Shown here in pieces: positions 4,334 to 19,395 of a stretch of DNA of 64,000 nt. The position numbers and the translations under genes are program-made. The notes below the pieces were generated by a model, which was not told the origin of the DNA, made no database searches, and was given only the letters and a program-made list of their open reading frames with translations. Positions within the stretch are counted from its first letter, which is position 1, and every line of letters starts with the position of its first letter. This stretch comes from an uncultured Bacilli bacterium (GTDB taxonomy: Bacteria > Bacillota_I > Bacilli_A > RF39 > UBA660), in contig CALVJQ010000002.1 of NCBI GenBank assembly GCA_944332265.1, positions 652-64,651 of the forward strand, in the 5' to 3' direction.

Positions 4334-5632
4334 CTAGTTTCCAAAAGTTAATAATACATAAGCTATACCTATTCCAATACCACAAATTAATGATACAGCA
4401 GCGATTAGAATAGCAGCAGTGGCAAAACCTTGACTTTTTTTCTCTTCTTCGACAACTAATTTGATATCCTCTTGTTCTAATTGTTTCTTTTTTTCTTTTA
4501 GTAACTCTGGATGATCTTTAGGGTTAATTGGATATTTCTTTTGAATTAAGTCTAATTTAGTTGTTACACGAACGTTGATACTTTGAGTCGCCATTGTTCT
4601 TTCTACTTTATTTGTTTTTTCTTCTTTAGCTAATTTAGATTCTTTTTCTTTTTGTAATTTAGCAATATCTTGAATATTTTTAACAATGTCATTTTCTAAT
4701 ATAGAAGCATTTTTTAAATCTGTATTATTATAAATTATTCTAATAACAGCATCTATATATAATTTTTTAGCATCATTAATAGCTTCGCTCATTTTTCTTA
4801 TTTCAGGATAGAATCTTTCAAATAAGGTATTTATTAAAGCGGTTTTATTTACTAGTTTATTATTTAATATATATTCATTATCGCCAACTAAATTATCTTT
4901 ATCTATACTATTAGTTACAGAGATTGGGCTTAAATAAGCATCAGACCAAACTGGCTTTTTATATTCATTTTGTTTGCTAATTAAACAATAATCTAAACCA
5001 CGATATTTGCGACCAACAATATAATCGAATAGAATCATACGAAGATATTTTTTTTCAATTGCTCTTTTAACTTTAGTATCGATAGATGTACCAGTTTGAA
5101 GTTCAATTTCTTTAATTAAAGCATATAACCCTAGTTTAATAATATCTTCTATAGTATCATGACTTTTAATACCATTTCCTTTAGTATATATTGGTATTTC
5201 TAAAACATTAGTTAACCAAGTAGCATCTTTTTCAGGAATTACACCATTATTTAAATATGTTAGCATATGGTTAATAACGGTTGTAGCAGATATTCTTGTC
5301 TCAATATCTTTACTATAATTTAATAAGGTAAAGACTCCGATATTTTGATCTTCTGTTACTATTCTTTTACTTTCTTCGTGATCAACATCAAATAATTCGG
5401 CAATGTCTGATTTTATAATATCATAATCATCTATATACATTGTATCAGGGTTTAAACTATTTGATTTAAAAACACCAAATACATTATTATTTAATTGAAC
5501 TAGTTGTGAGCCATCTTTAAAGTTGTTAAAAACTTCCATCGTTATTGGTTCTTCGCGACGGATACCATTATCTAAGGATACTATATATTTTTGTTCAGGT
5601 TGAATATTTGTTTCAGAATAATTTTTCTCCAT
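4334..5632 (-). CDS. tail-anchored hypothetical protein (large cytoplasmic domain, C-terminal TM helix)
   Basis: 432-aa ORF with SD AGGAG 8 nt upstream. The only hydrophobic helix is at the extreme C-terminus (GFATAAILIAAVSLICGIGIGIAYVLL), preceded by a K/E-rich coiled segment. Confidence 0.5.
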   Translation of the reverse strand: MEKNYSETNIQPEQKYIVSLDNGIRREEPITMEVFNNFKDGSQLVQLNNNVFGVFKSNSLNPDTMYIDDYDIIKSDIAELFDVDHEESKRIVTEDQNIGVFTLLNYSKDIETRISATTVINHMLTYLNNGVIPEKDATWLTNVLEIPIYTKGNGIKSHDTIEDIIKLGLYALIKEIELQTGTSIDTKVKRAIEKKYLRMILFDYIVGRKYRGLDYCLISKQNEYKKPVWSDAYLSPISVTNSIDKDNLVGDNEYILNNKLVNKTALINTLFERFYPEIRKMSEAINDAKKLYIDAVIRIIYNNTDLKNASILENDIVKNIQDIAKLQKEKESKLAKEEKTNKVERTMATQSINVRVTTKLDLIQKKYPINPKDHPELLKEKKKQLEQEDIKLVVEEEKKSQGFATAAILIAAVSLICGIGIGIAYVLLTFGN

Positions 5633-5719
5633 AATAACTGCTCCTAGTCTATAAGAGAATTATAGCAGATATTTATTAATTTGGGTATAAAAAATGTACA
5701 TTTTGTTGATTTACTATTA

Positions 5720-5746
5720 AAAAAAGACCAATATGGTCTTTTGGTT
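5720..5746 (-). terminator. intrinsic terminator hairpin (AAGACCA-TAT-TGGTCTT) with flanking A/T runs, directly after the tRNA-like element
   Basis: Perfect 6-7 bp GC-containing stem read in the sequence, with a T-run on the minus strand after it. Confidence 0.4.
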
Positions 5747-5752
5747 GACATT

Positions 5753-5828
5753 TGGTGCCGAGAGACTGAGTTAAACAAGTCACCTTATGCAAACAAAGCA
5801 TACGTTCTAACGTTACAACTATCTCGGC
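5753..5828 (-). ncRNA. tRNA-like element, 76 nt: 7-bp acceptor stem plus encoded ACCA, perfect 5-bp anticodon stem with loop UUUGUUU (anticodon UGU); D and T arms degenerate
   Basis: Minus-strand sequence is GCCGAGA-TA-...-TATGC-TTTGTTT-GCATA-AGGTG-ACTTG-TTTAACT-CAGTC-TCTCGGC-ACCA. It is about 60% identical to the tRNA-Thr(CGU) 3 kb away and is followed 8 nt later by a terminator. Only 3 bp of the T-stem and 3 bp of the D-stem pair. Confidence 0.45.
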
Positions 5829-5968
5829 ATAAATAGTACTTTTTCAAGTACATTAATATAATACCACAAAGTTTTAAAATTATACAATTTTTTTAAATAA
5901 ATTGACACTATAATTACAAATTTATTAGAAAATGATATAATTAGATTATCTTTAGGAAGGATGTTCTT

Positions 5969-6670
5969 ATGAATCAAGAAAAATTTGGACAAGTTATTAA
6001 AGAGATAAGAAAAAAGCATAATTTAACACAAAGTCAATTAGCACAAAAATATAATGTTACTTATCAAGCTGTAAGTAAATGGGAAAATGGTTTGAATATG
6101 CCTGATACTGGATTAATAAAACAAATTAGTAAAGATTTTAATATTAGTTTAGAAGAACTATTAGATGGTGAATATAAAGAAAAGGCAGAACATCCTAAAA
6201 CATTTAAATGGTTATTACTATTAATTCCACTTATAATTTTAATTATTATAGGAATAATATTATTAGTTGTAAAACTTAACGATGATTTTAAATTTAAAAC
6301 TTTATCTTCTTCTAGTAATTTTTTTAATATATCTGGGAGTATTGCTTATAATGAAAGTAAATCTGCTATATATATTACTAATATTGAATATAGTGGAGAG
6401 GAAGATGATACTTTATATAAAGATATAGAATGTAGTTTATTTGAATCAGACAATAACGTAGATGTGAAAATAAGTTCTTTTTCTTCTAATAAAGAAAATA
6501 TTAAATTAGATGAATTTTTAAAAGAAGTTACTTTATCTGTTGATGACTATGAAAAAAATTGTGATGAATATAATGATAATAGTTTATATTTAACAATTAA
6601 TGCAACTGATAAAAATGATAAAATTACAACTTATAAAATTCCTTTAACAATGGATAGCTGTGCTACTTAA
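5969..6670 (+). CDS. membrane-anchored XRE-family (HTH_3) transcriptional regulator with extracellular C-terminal domain
   Basis: N-terminal HTH 'LTQSQLAQKYNVTYQAVSKWENG', then a TM helix (WLLLLIPLIILIIIGIILLVV), then a roughly 130-aa extracytoplasmic domain. A TTACAA-16-TATAAT promoter and an SD are upstream. Confidence 0.7.
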   Translation: MNQEKFGQVIKEIRKKHNLTQSQLAQKYNVTYQAVSKWENGLNMPDTGLIKQISKDFNISLEELLDGEYKEKAEHPKTFKWLLLLIPLIILIIIGIILLVVKLNDDFKFKTLSSSSNFFNISGSIAYNESKSAIYITNIEYSGEEDDTLYKDIECSLFESDNNVDVKISSFSSNKENIKLDEFLKEVTLSVDDYEKNCDEYNDNSLYLTINATDKNDKITTYKIPLTMDSCAT

Positions 6671-6771
6671 TTTAACTCAACTCTTAGTTGAGTTATTTTC
6701 AACTATTTCTTTATTTATTTTTATTTGTTTTTTTTGTATGATGATAGCAAGAAAGGAGAAATTATGTATTT

Positions 6772-8736
6772 ATGAAAAAGAAAAAAATATTATTGGGACT
6801 GGGAGTTTTAATTATTGTAATACTCTTAGTAATTGGAGGATTTTGGATAGGAAAAAATAAGTTAAATAAAGAAGAAGTTAATCAAGTTAAAAGTATGATT
6901 GCTTTACAAAGTGAAAAAGAAAAGGATTTTAAAATTGATGGTTATACAATTGATGAACCTAATGTTATTTTGAATCCTTATGGCAATTCGCCATTAACAG
7001 CATTAATAATGTTTGAAACTGATAAGGAGGTTGAAGTAACAGTTACTATAAAAGGTGATGATAAATTATCAACTTTTACACATACTTTTGCTAAAGAAAA
7101 AGAGCATTATTTACCTATTTATGGTTTATATGCTGATAGAAAAAATAAAGTTATAATTGAATATGAAGATGATAATCAAGAAATTAAAAAGGAAATAGAA
7201 ATTAAAACTGATAAATTACCTTCTAATATGGCTTTGCCAACGGAAGTAGATGCTAAAAAAAGTAAATTAACTAACGAATTATATTTCTTTACACCATCTA
7301 GTAGTGGGTATACTATGGCATATGATGTAAATGGTGATGTTAGATGGTATTTTACTAATTATGCATTATGGAAAATAGACAGATTAGAAAATGGAAATCT
7401 TTTAGTTAGTACGGAAAGATTAGTTAATAGTCCATATTATATGACAGGATTATATGAAATGGATTTATTAGGTAAGATATATAATGAATATAGTCTTCCT
7501 GGGGGATATCACCATGATTATTATGAAATGGAAAATGGAAATCTTTTAGTTGCAAGTGATGACTTTAATAACGAAAGTGGTACTGTAGAAGATTATATTG
7601 TTGAATTAGATAGGAAAACTGGAGAAATAGTAAAAACATTTGATTTAAAAGATGTTTTAAAGATGACAGATGGTAAAAGTGAAAACTGGTCTGATTATGA
7701 TTGGTTTCATAATAATTCAGTTTGGTATGATAAAAAAACTAATTCTATTACCTTGTCAGGTCGTCATCAAGATGCTGTTATTAATTTAGACTATGATACA
7801 GGAAAATTAAATTGGATTATTGGTGATTCAACTAATTGGAGTGAAGAATATCAAAAGTATTTCTTTACACCTGTTGGCGACGACTTTGAATGGCAATGGA
7901 GTCAACATGCGGCAATGATTACTCCAGAAGGATATGTATTTATCTTAGATAACGGTAATAATAAATCAAAAATTAAAGAAGAATATGTTGATGCTTCTAA
8001 TAGTTATACTAGAGGAGTTATGTATAAGATAGATACTGATAAAATGACAATTGAACAAGTATGGGAATATGGTAAAGAAAGAGGAAGTGAATTTTATTCT
8101 CCATACATATCTGATGTTGATTATTTAGATAAGGATCATTATATAGTTCATTCTGGTGGTATAGTATTTGTAGATGGTAAAAATTCTAATCAACCTGCGG
8201 GATTTAGTAAAGGTGCTGAATTATTATCTGATACAGTAGAAATTATTGATGATGAAGTAGTTTTTGAAATAAAATTACCAACAAATAATTATCGTGTTGA
8301 AAAAATGAGTTTATATACTGATGATAATAATTTTAAATTGGGTGAAGCAAACAGAATTGGTTCACTTGGTGAAACAAAGAAAGATGATAAAAAATTAACA
8401 TTTAATTTATTTACTAAAAAAATCGATGATACTTATAAAAAACATGATATTAGTATTGATAAAGAGGTTGATCGTTTAGTAGTTAAAGGTCAATTTAAAA
8501 GAACTGATTCAGTTAATATTGTATTATATAAAGGAATAACTGCTAATTATTATAACCTACGAGTAAGTAAAAAACCATATACTGCTTTATGTGTTGATAT
8601 TTTTACAGAAGAAGAGACTAAAAATGGAATTGTTGTTACTAAGTATATTAATAATGATGGTTTAAAAGGTAAGTATGCTGTATATATTGAAATAAATGGA
8701 ACATTATATAATACTAATGAATATGTTGAATTTTAA
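6772..8736 (+). CDS. signal-anchored beta-propeller protein, arylsulfotransferase (ASST)-like
   Basis: 654 aa with an N-terminal TM helix; repeated 'ENGNLLV' and 'GGYHHDYY' and Trp-rich propeller-like repeats recalled from the ASST family. Not verified by search. Confidence 0.45.
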   Translation: MKKKKILLGLGVLIIVILLVIGGFWIGKNKLNKEEVNQVKSMIALQSEKEKDFKIDGYTIDEPNVILNPYGNSPLTALIMFETDKEVEVTVTIKGDDKLSTFTHTFAKEKEHYLPIYGLYADRKNKVIIEYEDDNQEIKKEIEIKTDKLPSNMALPTEVDAKKSKLTNELYFFTPSSSGYTMAYDVNGDVRWYFTNYALWKIDRLENGNLLVSTERLVNSPYYMTGLYEMDLLGKIYNEYSLPGGYHHDYYEMENGNLLVASDDFNNESGTVEDYIVELDRKTGEIVKTFDLKDVLKMTDGKSENWSDYDWFHNNSVWYDKKTNSITLSGRHQDAVINLDYDTGKLNWIIGDSTNWSEEYQKYFFTPVGDDFEWQWSQHAAMITPEGYVFILDNGNNKSKIKEEYVDASNSYTRGVMYKIDTDKMTIEQVWEYGKERGSEFYSPYISDVDYLDKDHYIVHSGGIVFVDGKNSNQPAGFSKGAELLSDTVEIIDDEVVFEIKLPTNNYRVEKMSLYTDDNNFKLGEANRIGSLGETKKDDKKLTFNLFTKKIDDTYKKHDISIDKEVDRLVVKGQFKRTDSVNIVLYKGITANYYNLRVSKKPYTALCVDIFTEEETKNGIVVTKYINNDGLKGKYAVYIEINGTLYNTNEYVEF

Positions 8737-8825: not shown

Positions 8826-8900
8826 TGGTGCCGACTGCCGGATTTGAACCAGCGACCTACGCGTTACGAGGGCGTTGCACTACCACTGTGCTAAGTCGGC
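8826..8900 (-). tRNA. tRNA-Thr (anticodon CGU), CCA encoded
   Basis: Reverse complement folds as a cloverleaf: acceptor GCCGACT/AGTCGGC, D-arm GCAC-AGTGGTA-GTGC, anticodon loop CUCGUAA, T-arm GCTGG-TTCAAAT-CCGGC, discriminator A, then CCA. There is one C-C mismatch at 31-39. Confidence 0.85.
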
Positions 8901-8967
8901 TTATATAAATTATACACTTTTTTTTAAAATAGTGGTATACTTTTATAAATAATAGGAGTTGATTTTT

Positions 8968-9993
8968 GTGAAATGTGTTTCCTTAAAAGGTAAAAAGAAA
9001 CTAGAAGTTTCGACTATTAATAATGCAAAGTCTAAAGATGGTAGTGTTGTTATTGATATTAAGAAAACAGGAATTTGTGGTTCTGATATTCATTATTGGG
9101 ATATGGGAATGCCTGATGGATTAGTAATGGGACATGAGTTTTGTGGAGTAGTAACTGACCCTGGGTCACGTAAAGATTTAAAAATTGGAGATCGTGTAAC
9201 AGGTTTACCTATTTCGCCTTGTGGAAAGTGTCCTGCTTGCTTAAGTGGAAATCCACAATATTGTCCTGATACTTGGACATATGCTGTTGGGTTGTCTTTA
9301 ACTAACCCTGGTGGTTATGCTGAGGCAACTGCCGTAAGACCCGATTTAGTTATTAAGGTTCCTAGTAATATTACTGATTCTGAAGTTGCGATGGTAGAAC
9401 CAACTGCTGTTGGGTTGCATGCTGTTAATTTAGCTGATATTAAAATAGGTTCTAAAGTTTTAGTTATTGGAGCGGGAATTATAGGCGATATATGTGCTAT
9501 GTTTGCTAAAATGAATGGAGCTTCTTATGTAGCTATATCTGAAACTAATGAAAAACGTGGTAAAAAAGCAGTTACATTAAAGTGTGCTGATGAATACTTT
9601 TATGCTCATGATGAAAAGTTTATGGAAAATGTTAGAAGAGAGTGTCCTTTTGGATATGATGTAGTATTTGATTGTTCAGGGAATAGTGCAGCTGTTTCAA
9701 CTGCCCTTGCTTGTGTTAAACCAAATGGAACTGTAGTTATGGTTGGAGTTTCAATGGAAAGTATTACTATTCCTTCTGTTTTATTAGTTATGCATGAATT
9801 AAAAGTATATGGAGCTATTGGATATACATATGATGAATTTAAAGAATGTATTGATTTAATGTCTACACGTAAAATTGATATGTTGAAATTTGTTGATGAT
9901 ATAGTTGGATTAGATGGCGTACAAAATGCTTTTGAGAGATTGACTTCCGGCGAAGATAATGCTATTAAAATTTTAATTGACCCAAATAAATAA
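8968..9993 (+). CDS. Zn-dependent alcohol/polyol dehydrogenase (MDR family, sorbitol/threonine dehydrogenase-like)
   Basis: 'GICGSDIHYW' and 'GHEFCGVV' catalytic-zinc motifs, a structural-zinc Cys cluster (CGKCPACLSGNPQYC) and a 'GAGIIG' Rossmann motif. GTG 8968 sits 10 nt after AGGAG, which is better than the track's TTG 8959. Confidence 0.8.
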   Translation: MKCVSLKGKKKLEVSTINNAKSKDGSVVIDIKKTGICGSDIHYWDMGMPDGLVMGHEFCGVVTDPGSRKDLKIGDRVTGLPISPCGKCPACLSGNPQYCPDTWTYAVGLSLTNPGGYAEATAVRPDLVIKVPSNITDSEVAMVEPTAVGLHAVNLADIKIGSKVLVIGAGIIGDICAMFAKMNGASYVAISETNEKRGKKAVTLKCADEYFYAHDEKFMENVRRECPFGYDVVFDCSGNSAAVSTALACVKPNGTVVMVGVSMESITIPSVLLVMHELKVYGAIGYTYDEFKECIDLMSTRKIDMLKFVDDIVGLDGVQNAFERLTSGEDNAIKILIDPNK

Positions 9994-10095: not shown

Positions 10096-10461
10096 TGGTG
10101 GAGCAGAGGAGAATCGAACTCCTGTCCAAACTACTCTGTTATATAACGTCTACAAGTTTAGTTAGATTTATAATTTCATTAAGAAGACGGCTATAACGTA
10201 CCTATTTCTTAACTATCCTAAAAAAGATTCATTATTAGATCTTAGGATATCTAATAATATAATCTATATATATTAACCCTTAATTTATCCTATAGATGAA
10301 AATAAATAAGAGTGCTTCTTAACCTTCTATTAGGCAAATGCTAAAGCATTTGAAGCGAAATTATATGACTCTTTGTCATTTTATTTTAATTGTGAATTTT
10401 AGGTAATTCCTACCACTTGCAGTCATACACAGACATAATCTGTCGAAACCTGGTCTGCCCC
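10096..10461 (-). ncRNA. ssrA: tmRNA (ssrA), about 366 nt
   Basis: Minus-strand 5' end GGGGCAGACCAGGTTTCGACAG and 3' tRNA-like end GGACAGGAGTTCGATTCTCCTCTGCTCCACCA. An internal tag frame GAC AAA GAG TCA TAT AAT TTC GCT TCA AAT GCT TTA GCA TTT GCC TAA TAG reads (D)KESYNFASNALAFA**. Confidence 0.85.
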
Positions 10462-19149: not shown

Positions 19150-19395
19150 AAAAAAATCTAAAACTAAGGGACGAGAAAACCCGCGGTACCACCCTAATTC
19201 TAGATATCTAGCACTTTTATAGATTTAACGCATCTATTTACGATACAACTCCAACAGTGAATTTCATTATATTATTTATCTATAAATGCTTCCAGCTTTT
19301 AACATTTAATCTCTATTTAAGAACTTAATATAATTACTTAATCCGTCTTCAACGTTTTTCTAAAAAGTATTTTAGCATACTTATAAATAATATGC
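19150..19395 (-). promoter_or_regulatory. T-box riboswitch leader (Phe specifier UUC) with promoter TTGCAT-17-TAAAAT
   Basis: Conserved T-box sequence AATTAGGGTGGTACCGCGGG (reverse complement of 19180..19199), a stem I AGAGA motif, a 'GAAAUUCAC' specifier region, and a terminator hairpin plus U-run before the pheS SD. Confidence 0.8.

What the first reader, a model, noticed from the sequence alone, without database searches (positions are those of the whole stretch)
5753..5828. Unannotated tRNA-shaped RNA with intact acceptor/CCA and anticodon stem but decayed D and T arms
The minus strand of the 336-bp divergent intergenic region encodes a 76-nt sequence with a perfect 7-bp acceptor stem, discriminator A plus encoded CCA, U8-A9, and a perfect 5-bp anticodon stem with loop UUUGUUU (anticodon UGU). 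An intrinsic terminator follows 8 nt downstream. It shares about 60% identity and the same AGGUN variable loop with the genuine tRNA-Thr(CGU) 3 kb away. The T-arm (ACTTG-TTTAACT-CAGTC) and D-arm pair only 3 bp each, and position 37 is U. This could be a recently pseudogenised tRNA-Thr(UGU). It could also be a tRNA-derived regulatory RNA, for example a tRNA mimic, retained with its own promoter and terminator immediately upstream of the tail-anchored protein gene.
Basis: seen in the sequence. Interest (0 to 1): 0.6.

Follow-up and report, generated by a model that had tools for sequence, protein, structure and literature searches.

The report
Conserved odd-shaped threonine tRNA paralogue
The 76-base sequence is not a dying tRNA gene: it is a well-conserved, separately transcribed, oddly built copy of a threonine tRNA, found only in one group of gut bacteria, and it probably works outside normal protein synthesis.

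Summary
It is not a decaying pseudogene. The Rfam tRNA model scores it 42.7 bits (threshold 29) when the region is searched alone; speed filters hid this hit in the larger scans. I found 14 sequence variants in Candidatus Coprovivens-like gut Bacilli. They are 84–99% identical to each other, while their flanks are about 62% identical. Four stem pairs change on both sides and stay paired. The anticodon is always threonine (UGU or CGU). The bacterial ThrRS determinants and the ACCA end never vary. Every locus has its own extended −10 promoter and a terminator. The element most likely arose by duplication of the neighbouring tRNA-Thr(CGU); in one lineage the two genes lie about 80 nt apart. The un-tRNA-like features are themselves conserved: U14, no G19–C56 elbow pair, a one-base bulge in the T stem, and U or A at position 37. 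Two lineages lack the element, and in others its anticodon duplicates that of the genuine tRNA, so it is not an essential decoder. Best reading: a functional non-canonical tRNA-Thr paralogue, probably chargeable by ThrRS and acting outside decoding. That function is unproven. Its link to the downstream HipA-like operon is positional only.

The parts
5882..5887 (-). -35-like hexamer TTGTAT of the element's own promoter, 18 nt upstream of the -10 box
   Evidence: Read from the sequence. TTGTAT or TTGCAT sits at the same spacing in the window, L001, L003 and L007.
5858..5866 (-). Extended -10 box TGGTATTAT
   Evidence: A TGNTANNNT box ends 12-34 nt upstream of G1 in all 17 loci examined; sequence.
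5836..5851 (-). 5' leader hairpin GUACUUGAAAAAGUAC, presumably removed by RNase P
   Evidence: Predicted fold. In several lineages the pairing is kept with a different sequence, but L017 and L025 have no such hairpin, so it is not essential.
5753..5828 (-). 76-nt non-canonical tRNA-Thr paralogue: acceptor 1-7/66-72, anticodon stem 27-31/39-43, anticodon UGU at 5795-5793, T arm with a bulged U, A73 and encoded CCA
   Evidence: RF00005 scores 42.7 bits. There are 14 variants with covariation at 6:67, 7:66, 29:41 and 30:40. My own model finds one copy per locus.
5719..5742 (-). Intrinsic terminator: AAAAGACCA-UAU-UGGUCUUUU followed by a U run
   Evidence: Predicted fold. A hairpin plus U run follows the CCA in every locus, with differing stem sequences. 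The simple scan missed it.
5659..5667 (-). Separate extended -10 promoter (TGCTATAAT) of the downstream operon. It shows that the element and the operon are distinct transcription units.
   Evidence: Sequence. The box is conserved in all loci, including L032, which lacks the element.
8826..8900 (-). Genuine tRNA-Thr(CGU), the likely parent of the element
   Evidence: ARAGORN and Rfam at 66.5 bits. It is the only other sequence that the element's own model hits, at about 25 bits. In L017 it lies about 80 nt upstream of the element.
4334..5632 (-). Neighbouring gene: a tail-anchored protein with a HipA/CtkA-like kinase fold. It is a positional partner only.
   Evidence: It always lies downstream of the element: 111-157 nt in the loci and about 290 nt in L033. 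Foldseek matches CtkA, HipA and HipT. Homologues without the element exist.

Best explanation
The element is a functional RNA gene, transcribed on its own. It is a diverged paralogue of the neighbouring tRNA-Thr(CGU), most likely produced by tandem duplication in an ancestor of the Candidatus Coprovivens-like Bacilli. A sigma-A promoter with an extended -10 box makes a short precursor that ends at an intrinsic terminator. RNase P and 3' exonucleases would then trim it to a 76-nt RNA with a genome-encoded CCA end (inferred). The RNA keeps what threonyl-tRNA synthetase reads (G1-C72, C2-G71, G4-C69, G35, U36) and a 12-bp acceptor/T helix. It has lost, and keeps lost, features that decoding depends on: A37 (it has U or A there), the G19-C56 elbow pair, A14, and a regular T stem. 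I therefore think it is charged with threonine but used poorly, if at all, by EF-Tu and the ribosome. That would make it a 'non-proteinogenic' tRNA-Thr that either carries threonine to some non-ribosomal acceptor or acts as a tRNA-Thr look-alike for a tRNA-binding partner. Shown here: the tRNA-like fold, purifying selection, the conserved transcription unit, the threonine-only anticodon and the dispensability. Inferred: processing, charging, exclusion from translation and the downstream use.
For: (1) It is tRNA-like beyond chance: RF00005 scores 42.7 bits against a threshold of 29. (2) It is under selection. Mean pairwise identity is 91.5% (minimum 84%) against 61-63% for the 70 nt upstream and 100 nt downstream. 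All cells of the acceptor and anticodon stems are paired, and both-sided changes occur at 6:67, 7:66, 29:41 and 30:40, the last with four pair types. The states at 7:66 and 29:41 occur in all four combinations, so the changes recurred. (3) Identity features never vary in the 14 variants: G1-C72, C2-G71, C3-G70, G4-C69, A5-U68, U33, G35, U36, A73 and CCA. The bacterial Thr identity set is G1-C72, C2-G71, G4-C69, G5-C68, G34, G35, U36 (PMC9976931). (4) The anticodon is UGU or CGU only. C34 appears on two different stem backgrounds, L015 and L033. (5) A promoter and terminator are present in 17 of 17 loci. (6) Origin: the element's own model hits only the genuine tRNA-Thr(CGU), at about 25 bits, and the two are in tandem in L017. 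(7) It is not an essential decoder. In the L015-type (L015, L016, L020, L021, L026) and L033 lineages its anticodon is CGU, and in the L015-type loci the genuine tRNA-Thr(CGU) lies 1-3 kb away. The element is absent from L032 (close clade, 69% protein identity) and from L029 (57%). (8) The non-canonical features are conserved rather than drifting. The bulged U and U38 are invariant. U14 and U19 change only in L030, and U56 only in L033. Position 37 flips between U and A in unrelated lineages. (9) Precedent: the staphylococcal non-proteogenic tRNA-Gly species have U/D19 and UGC or UGU instead of UUC in the T loop, and bind EF-Tu and the ribosome poorly (PMC7826273).
Against: I have no expression, charging or EF-Tu data. 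No aminoacyl-tRNA-dependent transferase (FemAB-type or other) turned up in the window ORFs I scanned or in the neighbouring genes of the fetched loci. I could not scan the whole genome. A score of 42.7 bits is within the range of real decoding tRNAs, and a threonine-only anticodon is also what selection against mistranslation would produce for a working elongator tRNA. The fold of the middle of the molecule is unresolved. A rod in which the D half pairs with the T half is the minimum-energy and RNAalifold consensus structure and fits the data about as well as the cloverleaf. I did not confirm that a canonical tRNA-Thr(UGU) exists elsewhere in these genomes.
Confidence: 0.45

Rival explanations
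1. It is simply an unusual but working elongator tRNA-Thr, a minor extra isoacceptor that annotation pipelines miss and that is used in ordinary translation.
For: RF00005 scores it above threshold. It has a 7-nt anticodon loop with U33 and only threonine anticodons. It keeps G53-C61, U54, U55, A58, G18, A21, G26/A44, G10-C25 and an encoded CCA. It has a tRNA-like promoter and terminator. It evolves only about twice as fast as the genuine tRNA.
Against: Position 37 is U in 10 of 14 variants and flips between U and A, whereas the genuine tRNA has A37. There is no G19-C56 pair, position 14 is U, and the T stem has a bulge. ARAGORN rejects it at default and -ps thresholds. In several lineages its anticodon duplicates that of the neighbouring tRNA-Thr(CGU), and two lineages lack it. 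Conserved aberrant features are hard to explain for a redundant decoder.
Confidence: 0.25
2. It is an uncharged tRNA-Thr mimic that regulates gene expression by binding a threonine T-box leader or ThrRS, in the manner proposed for Bacillus cereus tRNA-Other.
For: The threonine anticodon and free ACCA end are conserved, and these are the two elements a T-box reads. T-box regulation exists in this organism: there is a pheS leader at 19164-19361, 86.1 bits. Precedent: tRNA-Other is poorly charged, is not on polysomes and affects the trpS1 T-box (PMC3399842).
Against: T-box stem I docks on the tRNA elbow, and here the G19-C56 pair is missing. No threonine T-box or thrS gene was available to test. 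Strict conservation of the acceptor-stem determinants for ThrRS is not needed for T-box binding.
Confidence: 0.15
3. It is a cis-acting leader or a base-pairing small RNA that controls the downstream HipA-like operon.
For: It always lies upstream of that operon, 111-157 nt in most loci and about 290 nt in L033, although the upstream neighbour differs between lineages.
Against: A strong terminator and a separate conserved promoter lie between it and the gene. Duplex predictions with the translation start region are no better than for shuffled sequence, with z from -1.3 to +1.1. Distant homologues of the operon lack it (L011-L013, L029), and L032 has lost it while keeping the operon and its promoter. 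No Rfam cis-regulatory family matches.
Confidence: 0.06
4. It is a decaying tRNA pseudogene or an attachment-site remnant left by an integrating element.
For: It is AT-enriched relative to the genuine tRNA (43% against 60% G+C). It lies at the far side of variable cargo that follows a tRNA gene.
Against: It is 91.5% identical across lineages while its flanks are about 62% identical. It shows compensatory substitutions. It is full length and has a conserved promoter and terminator.
Confidence: 0.02

Closest known systems
Canonical bacterial tRNA-Thr (here the neighbouring tRNA-Thr(CGU), window 8826-8900)
   Same: Both are 76 nt. The first five acceptor pairs are identical, as are A73 and the encoded CCA. 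Both have G35 and U36, a 7-nt anticodon loop with U33, G53-C61, U54, U55 and A58. The element passes Rfam RF00005.
   Different: Overall identity is 55%. The element has U or A at position 37 instead of A37, U38, U14, U19 and U56 (so no G19-C56 pair), a bulged U in the T stem, a 4-nt variable region and G13·G22. Its G+C content is 43% against 60%. ARAGORN does not call it.
Non-proteogenic tRNA-Gly isoacceptors of Staphylococcus (NP1-3), donors for Fem peptidoglycan transferases (PMC7826273)
   Same: Both are lineage-restricted paralogues of a normal tRNA. Both keep the synthetase identity and carry altered D and T loops, with U at 19 and a non-UUC T loop. In Staphylococcus these changes weaken EF-Tu and ribosome use.
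   Different: The amino acid here would be threonine, not glycine. No Fem-type enzyme was found nearby. The T-stem bulge and pyrimidine at 37 are not features listed in the introduction of that paper, the only part I read. Charging and EF-Tu exclusion are untested here.
Bacillus cereus tRNA-Other (pseudo-tRNA next to a genomic island; PMC3399842)
   Same: Both are tRNA-derived RNAs beside variable or island DNA. Both are dispensable and thought to act outside translation, and both have an anticodon that could address a T-box.
   Different: tRNA-Other is reported as part of larger transcripts with long 5' and 3' extensions. This element has a promoter 12-34 nt upstream and a terminator about 10 nt downstream. 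tRNA-Other has a Trp anticodon.
Escherichia coli thrS operator (tRNA-Thr anticodon-arm mimic in an mRNA; described in PMC9976931)
   Same: Both present a threonine anticodon-like loop that ThrRS could bind.
   Different: The operator is part of an mRNA leader, has no acceptor arm or CCA, and controls translation of thrS. This element is a free-standing full tRNA shape and is not next to thrS.

Membership tests
tRNA (Rfam RF00005) | Covariance-model score at or above the gathering score of 29 bits | tested here: met
   42.7 bits, E = 1.4e-8, for window 5756-5828. The hit was lost to filters in larger searches. The L030 variant gives no hit.
tRNA (Rfam RF00005) | 7-bp acceptor stem, 5-bp anticodon stem, 7-nt loop with U33, discriminator base plus CCA | tested here: met
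   All cells are paired in 14 variants, with covariation at four pairs. U33, A73 and CCA are invariant.
Decoding (elongator) tRNA | Purine at position 37 (A37 in tRNA-Thr) | tested here: not met
   Position 37 is U in 10 of 14 variants and A in 4 (L007, L018, L023 and identical copies). The genuine tRNA has A37.
Decoding (elongator) tRNA | Elbow and core tertiary pairs G19-C56 and U8-A14; regular 5-bp T stem | tested here: not met
   U19/U56 in 12 of 14 variants (C19 in L030, G56 in L033). Position 14 is U in 13 of 14 variants and C in L030. The T stem needs a bulged U. G18, U54-A58, U55 and G53-C61 are kept.
Decoding (elongator) tRNA | Binds EF-Tu and the ribosome; needed to read its codons | not testable with these tools
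   Indirect evidence only: its anticodon is redundant with the neighbouring tRNA-Thr(CGU) in some lineages, and it is absent from L029 and L032.
ThrRS substrate (tRNA-Thr identity) | Bacterial determinants G1-C72, C2-G71, G4-C69, G5-C68, G34, G35, U36 (PMC9976931 Table 1) | tested here: inconclusive
   G1-C72, C2-G71, G4-C69, G35 and U36 are present and invariant. Pair 5:68 is A-U, as in this organism's genuine tRNA-Thr. Position 34 is U or C. I could not test aminoacylation itself.
Non-proteinogenic tRNA (staphylococcal tRNA-Gly type) | Paralogue with altered D/T loops that keeps synthetase identity | tested here: met
Non-proteinogenic tRNA (staphylococcal tRNA-Gly type) | A partner aminoacyl-tRNA-dependent transferase in the genome | tested here: inconclusive
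   No FemAB or similar family appeared among the 29 window ORFs I scanned (9, 20 of at least 300 aa) or among the called neighbours of the related loci. I could not scan the rest of the genome.
tRNA pseudogene | Neutral decay: no conservation beyond the flanks, and stems broken by uncompensated changes | tested here: not met
   91.5% identity against about 62% for the flanks. No stem cell is broken in the acceptor or anticodon helices.
B. cereus tRNA-Other-like element | tRNA-like module embedded in a longer regulatory transcript | tested here: not met
   The -10 box ends 12-34 nt before G1, and a terminator follows within about 10 nt of the CCA in all loci. This is from sequence only; I did no transcript mapping.
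Cis-regulatory leader (riboswitch, T-box or attenuator) of the downstream operon | Match to a known leader family, or a terminator/antiterminator choice in the same transcript as the gene | tested here: not met
   No Rfam cis-regulatory family matches at E <= 10. The operon has its own conserved promoter after the terminator.

The most novel reading that the evidence does not exclude
The RNA is a dedicated, non-decoding threonyl carrier. ThrRS charges it, EF-Tu and the ribosome ignore it, and it feeds threonine to an as yet unrecognised aminoacyl-tRNA-dependent enzyme of the cell envelope. It might work together with the adjacent membrane-anchored HipA-like pseudokinase operon (bPH and LysM proteins), given that HipA-family kinases are known to act on tRNA-bound aminoacyl-tRNA synthetases.
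Probability: 0.15. Interest if true: 0.75.

Novelty: new variant of a known kind. Interest (0 to 1): 0.45.

Why it matters
Bacterial tRNA paralogues that selection has moved away from decoding are rare. The two I found in the literature are the staphylococcal tRNA-Gly species that feed cell-wall synthesis and the Bacillus cereus tRNA-Other. This would be a threonine example with a different set of alterations: U or A at 37, a T-stem bulge and no elbow pair. It comes with natural 'knock-out' lineages that lack it, which makes its role directly testable by comparing genomes and metatranscriptomes. There is also a practical point. Both standard detectors missed it in routine mode, ARAGORN at default thresholds and Infernal because of its speed filters, so similar conserved tRNA-like genes may be under-reported in AT-rich genomes.

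Tried and rejected
1. Whole-window ARAGORN and Rfam scans and a 401-nt Rfam scan at E <= 10 were all negative for the element. An 86-nt search showed this to be a filter artefact.
2. Relaxed ARAGORN (-ps80) of 14 variants, but it also makes 27 presumably spurious calls in the window, so I did not use it as evidence.
3. Two viral-contig scans with D-arm and T-arm patterns gave nothing or chance matches. BLAST against phage and plasmid collections gave no match. One metagenome hit, L024, was a chance match.
4. A base-pairing small-RNA role on the downstream start region is not supported: duplex energies are no better than for shuffled sequence.
5. A rod-like fold in which the D half pairs with the T half is the minimum-energy and RNAalifold consensus structure. 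Two one-sided changes preserve it and two break it (G12 in L030, G56 in L033). The cloverleaf has one change that preserves a pair and one that breaks one. I could not decide between the two folds.
6. An alternative small D hairpin (11-14/18-21) fits all four D-region substitutions but is very weak, so I leave it open.
7. I tested for a functional tie to the neighbouring protein. Its fold is HipA/CtkA-like. However, three distant homologues (L011-L013), the 57%-identical L029 and the close clade L032 have no element. The tie is therefore only positional.
8. Pfam, NCBIfam and PADLOC searches of the operon proteins and Pfam searches of 20 more window ORFs gave no aminoacyl-tRNA-using enzyme and no defence system.
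9. I could not check whether a canonical tRNA-Thr(UGU) exists elsewhere in the genome.

Full report
**1. The observation**

The minus strand of window 5753-5828 reads GCCGAGATAGTTGTAACGTTAGAACGTATGCTTTGTTTGCATAAGGTGACTTGTTTAACTCAGTCTCTCGGCACCA.
- a perfect 7-bp acceptor stem;
- A73 followed by an encoded CCA;
- U8 and A9;
- a perfect 5-bp anticodon stem;
- the loop UUUGUUU, with anticodon UGU at 5795-5793 and U at position 37.

It lies in the 336-bp gap between a 432-aa gene (5632→4334, minus) and a divergent XRE-type gene (5969→6670). A 9-bp hairpin followed by seven U residues (5742-5719) starts 10 nt after the CCA. The consensus terminator scan did not report this hairpin. Identity to the genuine tRNA-Thr(CGU) at 8826-8900 is 42 of 76 positions. 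The sequence occurs once in the window.

**2. Is it tRNA-like beyond chance?**

Three scans did not report it: default ARAGORN, the whole-window Rfam scan and a 401-nt Rfam scan at E <= 10. When only 86 nt were searched, the Rfam tRNA model scored it 42.7 bits against a gathering score of 29, with E = 1.4e-8. The earlier negatives were therefore losses in Infernal's speed filters.

The Infernal alignment shows a cloverleaf with these features:
- a D stem 10-13/22-25 in which 13:22 is G·G;
- a 4-nt variable region;
- a T stem of five pairs interrupted by one bulged U (GAC-u-UG / CAGUC).

The T arm is therefore intact in a register shifted by one base, not decayed. ARAGORN calls the element tRNA-Thr only when its threshold is cut to 80%. 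That setting also yields 27 presumably spurious calls in the window, so I give it no weight.

**3. Conservation**

The organism is a Candidatus Coprovivens-like member of the Bacilli, at about 27% G+C. I collected related loci in three ways:
- through the neighbouring protein in the genome collection;
- through exact-protein look-ups;
- through one metagenome scan with a D-region pattern.

These gave 14 distinct versions of the element from about 30 contigs. A covariance model built from them finds exactly one copy per locus. Its only other hit is the genuine tRNA-Thr(CGU), at about 25 bits.

Mean pairwise identity between different versions is 91.5% (minimum 84%). The 70 nt upstream and the 100 nt downstream are 61% and 63% identical. 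The neighbouring protein in these lineages is only 52-100% identical.

All acceptor-stem and anticodon-stem cells are paired. Both-sided changes occur at four pairs:

| Pair | Types seen |
|---|---|
| 6:67 | G-C, A-U |
| 7:66 | G-C, A-U, G·U |
| 29:41 | C-G, U-A |
| 30:40 | A-U, G-C, G·U, U-A |

The states at 7:66 and 29:41 occur in all four combinations, so these changes happened more than once. The element accumulates about twice as many differences as the genuine tRNA-Thr(CGU) in the same loci. This is purifying selection on a structured RNA, and it rules out a recent pseudogene.

**4. Transcription unit**

All 17 loci examined have an extended -10 box (TGNTANNNT) ending 12-34 nt before G1, and a hairpin with a U run within about 10 nt of the CCA. 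The terminator stems differ in sequence between lineages. In the window the parts are:
- -35 box TTGTAT at 5887-5882;
- extended -10 box TGGTATTAT at 5866-5858;
- a leader hairpin at 5851-5836;
- the terminator at 5742-5719.

The leader hairpin is present in many lineages but not all, so it is not essential. After the terminator comes a second, conserved extended -10 promoter (TGCTATAAT, 5667-5659) and a GGAG ribosome-binding site for the 432-aa gene. The RNA and the operon are therefore separate units.

**5. What is conserved and what is not**

These positions never vary in the 14 versions: G1-C72, C2-G71, C3-G70, G4-C69, A5-U68, U8, A9, G10-C25, G18, A21, G26, A44, U33, G35, U36, U38, G53-C61, U54, U55, A58, A73 and CCA.

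The published bacterial identity set for ThrRS is G1-C72, C2-G71, G4-C69, G5-C68, G34, G35 and U36 (PMC9976931). The element keeps all of these except two. Pair 5:68 is A-U, as it also is in this organism's genuine tRNA-Thr. Position 34 is U or C.

The anticodon is UGU in most versions. It is CGU in two groups with different anticodon stems, the L015 type and L033, so C34 probably arose or was retained independently. No non-threonine anticodon was seen.

Position 37 is U in ten versions and A in four, scattered over lineages. Position 32 is U or A.

The departures from a normal tRNA are themselves conserved:
- U14 (C only in L030);
- U19 (C only in L030) opposite U56 (G only in L033), so there is no G19-C56 elbow pair;
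- the bulged U in the T stem;
- the 4-nt variable region.

**6. Origin and distribution**

In L017 the genuine tRNA-Thr(CGU) lies about 80 nt upstream of the element on the same strand. Elsewhere the genuine tRNA lies 1-3 kb upstream with different genes in between. In the window these are an arylsulfotransferase and a membrane-anchored XRE protein. Where the genuine tRNA is not within the fetched stretch, the upstream neighbour is again different: a 5'-3' exonuclease gene in L005 and a Ham1 gene in L007. In L032, which has no element, a GNAT gene separates the genuine tRNA from the operon.

The simplest history is a tandem duplication of tRNA-Thr(CGU), followed by insertions of cargo just downstream of the genuine tRNA.

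The element always precedes the same operon. It lies 111-157 nt upstream in the loci and about 290 nt upstream in L033. However, five operon-bearing loci have no element:
- the operon's distant homologues in L011, L012 and L013;
- the 57%-identical L029;
- the close clade L032, at 69% protein identity.

L032 still keeps the genuine tRNA-Thr and the operon promoter. The element is therefore lineage-restricted and dispensable.

**7. The neighbouring gene**

The 432-aa protein has no Pfam, NCBIfam, PADLOC or PDB sequence match. An AlphaFold model (pLDDT 71.6, pTM 0.73) matches Helicobacter CtkA, HipA and HipT kinases by Foldseek, with best E = 2.8e-5. The kinase-like domain is N-terminal, followed by long helices and a C-terminal membrane anchor. 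The family is small, 61 clusters at 50% identity.

This point is weak.

From my own knowledge, HipA-family kinases act on aminoacyl-tRNA synthetases. That makes the adjacency tempting, but the distribution in section 6 and the lack of complementarity to the gene's start region leave only a positional link.

**8. Mechanism**

The RNA keeps what ThrRS, RNase P and 3'-end maturation need. It has lost features that decoding normally requires, and those losses are fixed rather than drifting. In the L015-type loci (L015, L016, L020, L021, L026) its anticodon duplicates that of the genuine tRNA-Thr(CGU) 1-3 kb away, and L033 also carries CGU. Two lineages lack the element altogether.

If it were only a redundant decoder, I would expect it to decay or to keep canonical features. 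It does neither. I therefore favour a threonine-accepting tRNA paralogue that works outside ordinary decoding (confidence 0.45).

The closest precedent is the staphylococcal non-proteogenic tRNA-Gly group. Those tRNAs also have U at 19 and a non-UUC T loop, and they bind EF-Tu and ribosomes poorly (PMC7826273).

The rivals, in order of my confidence:
- An odd but working elongator tRNA-Thr (0.25).
- An uncharged mimic acting on a threonine T-box or on ThrRS, like B. cereus tRNA-Other (PMC3399842) (0.15). A T-box does exist in this window upstream of pheS.
- A cis-acting or base-pairing regulator of the operon (0.06).
- A pseudogene (0.02).

**9. Limits**

- I have no expression or charging data.
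- I could not scan the whole genome for a canonical tRNA-Thr(UGU) or for aminoacyl-tRNA-dependent transferases.
- The metagenome pattern fixed the D region, so D-arm variation is under-sampled. Only the protein-anchored loci are unbiased, and two of them (L030 and L033) did show D-loop or T-loop changes.
- The central fold is unresolved. The cloverleaf is favoured by the tRNA model. A rod in which bases 9-18 pair with 52-60 is the minimum-energy and RNAalifold consensus structure. In the central domain each has changes that keep pairs and changes that break them, and neither shows a both-sided change.

**10. Verdict**

The pseudogene reading is rejected. The 'retained tRNA-derived RNA' reading is supported, but a regulatory role and a link to the neighbouring gene are not shown. 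The element is a new variant of a known kind, the non-canonical tRNA paralogues. Interest is moderate (0.45).

Noticed in passing
window 19164-19361 (-): A T-box leader lies upstream of pheS/pheT. It scores 86.1 bits, just under the Rfam gathering score of 93, with E = 1.6e-19. It did not appear in the whole-window gathering scan.
   Followed up: partly
window 5748-5833; Infernal's default filters lost a 42.7-bit tRNA hit when 64 kb or even 401 nt were searched. It appeared only in an 86-nt search. Other weak or AT-rich structured RNAs in this window may have been missed in the same way.
   Followed up: partly
window 4334-5632 (-), and downstream to about position 1: The gene encodes a tail-anchored protein with a HipA/CtkA-like kinase fold and an apparently degenerate catalytic loop. 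It heads a conserved operon: a ~173-aa membrane protein, a bPH_3 protein, a ~380-aa membrane protein, a LysM protein and a ~535-aa protein. The family is small (61 clusters at 50% identity) and has no annotation.
   Followed up: partly
window 5969-8736 (+): A membrane-anchored XRE/HTH protein and an arylsulfotransferase lie between the genuine tRNA-Thr(CGU) and the element. Other lineages carry different genes or nothing there (L017, L032), so this looks like a cargo insertion site downstream of the tRNA gene. I saw no integrase.
   Followed up: no
window about 5680-5712 (-): The box AAATCAACAAAATGTACATTTTTTATACC lies between the element's terminator and the operon promoter. It is conserved in many lineages, including L032, which lacks the element, and L033. 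It may be an operator for the operon.
   Followed up: no
L032 1741-1815 (+): In the lineage that lost the element, the genuine tRNA-Thr(CGU) has G73 instead of A73 as its discriminator base.
   Followed up: no
window 10096-10461 (-) and 8959-9993 (+): A tmRNA gene (123.5 bits) and a zinc alcohol dehydrogenase gene lie just beyond the genuine tRNA-Thr(CGU). The order tmRNA, then tRNA-Thr(CGU), then the element recurs in L015, L021 and L023.
   Followed up: no
L030 702-777 (+): This variant has three D-region changes (U12G, U14C, U19C). They break the cloverleaf pair 12:23 but all strengthen a small alternative hairpin 11-14/18-21. It gets no Rfam tRNA hit and no ARAGORN call on the correct strand, even at a 60% threshold.
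   Followed up: partly
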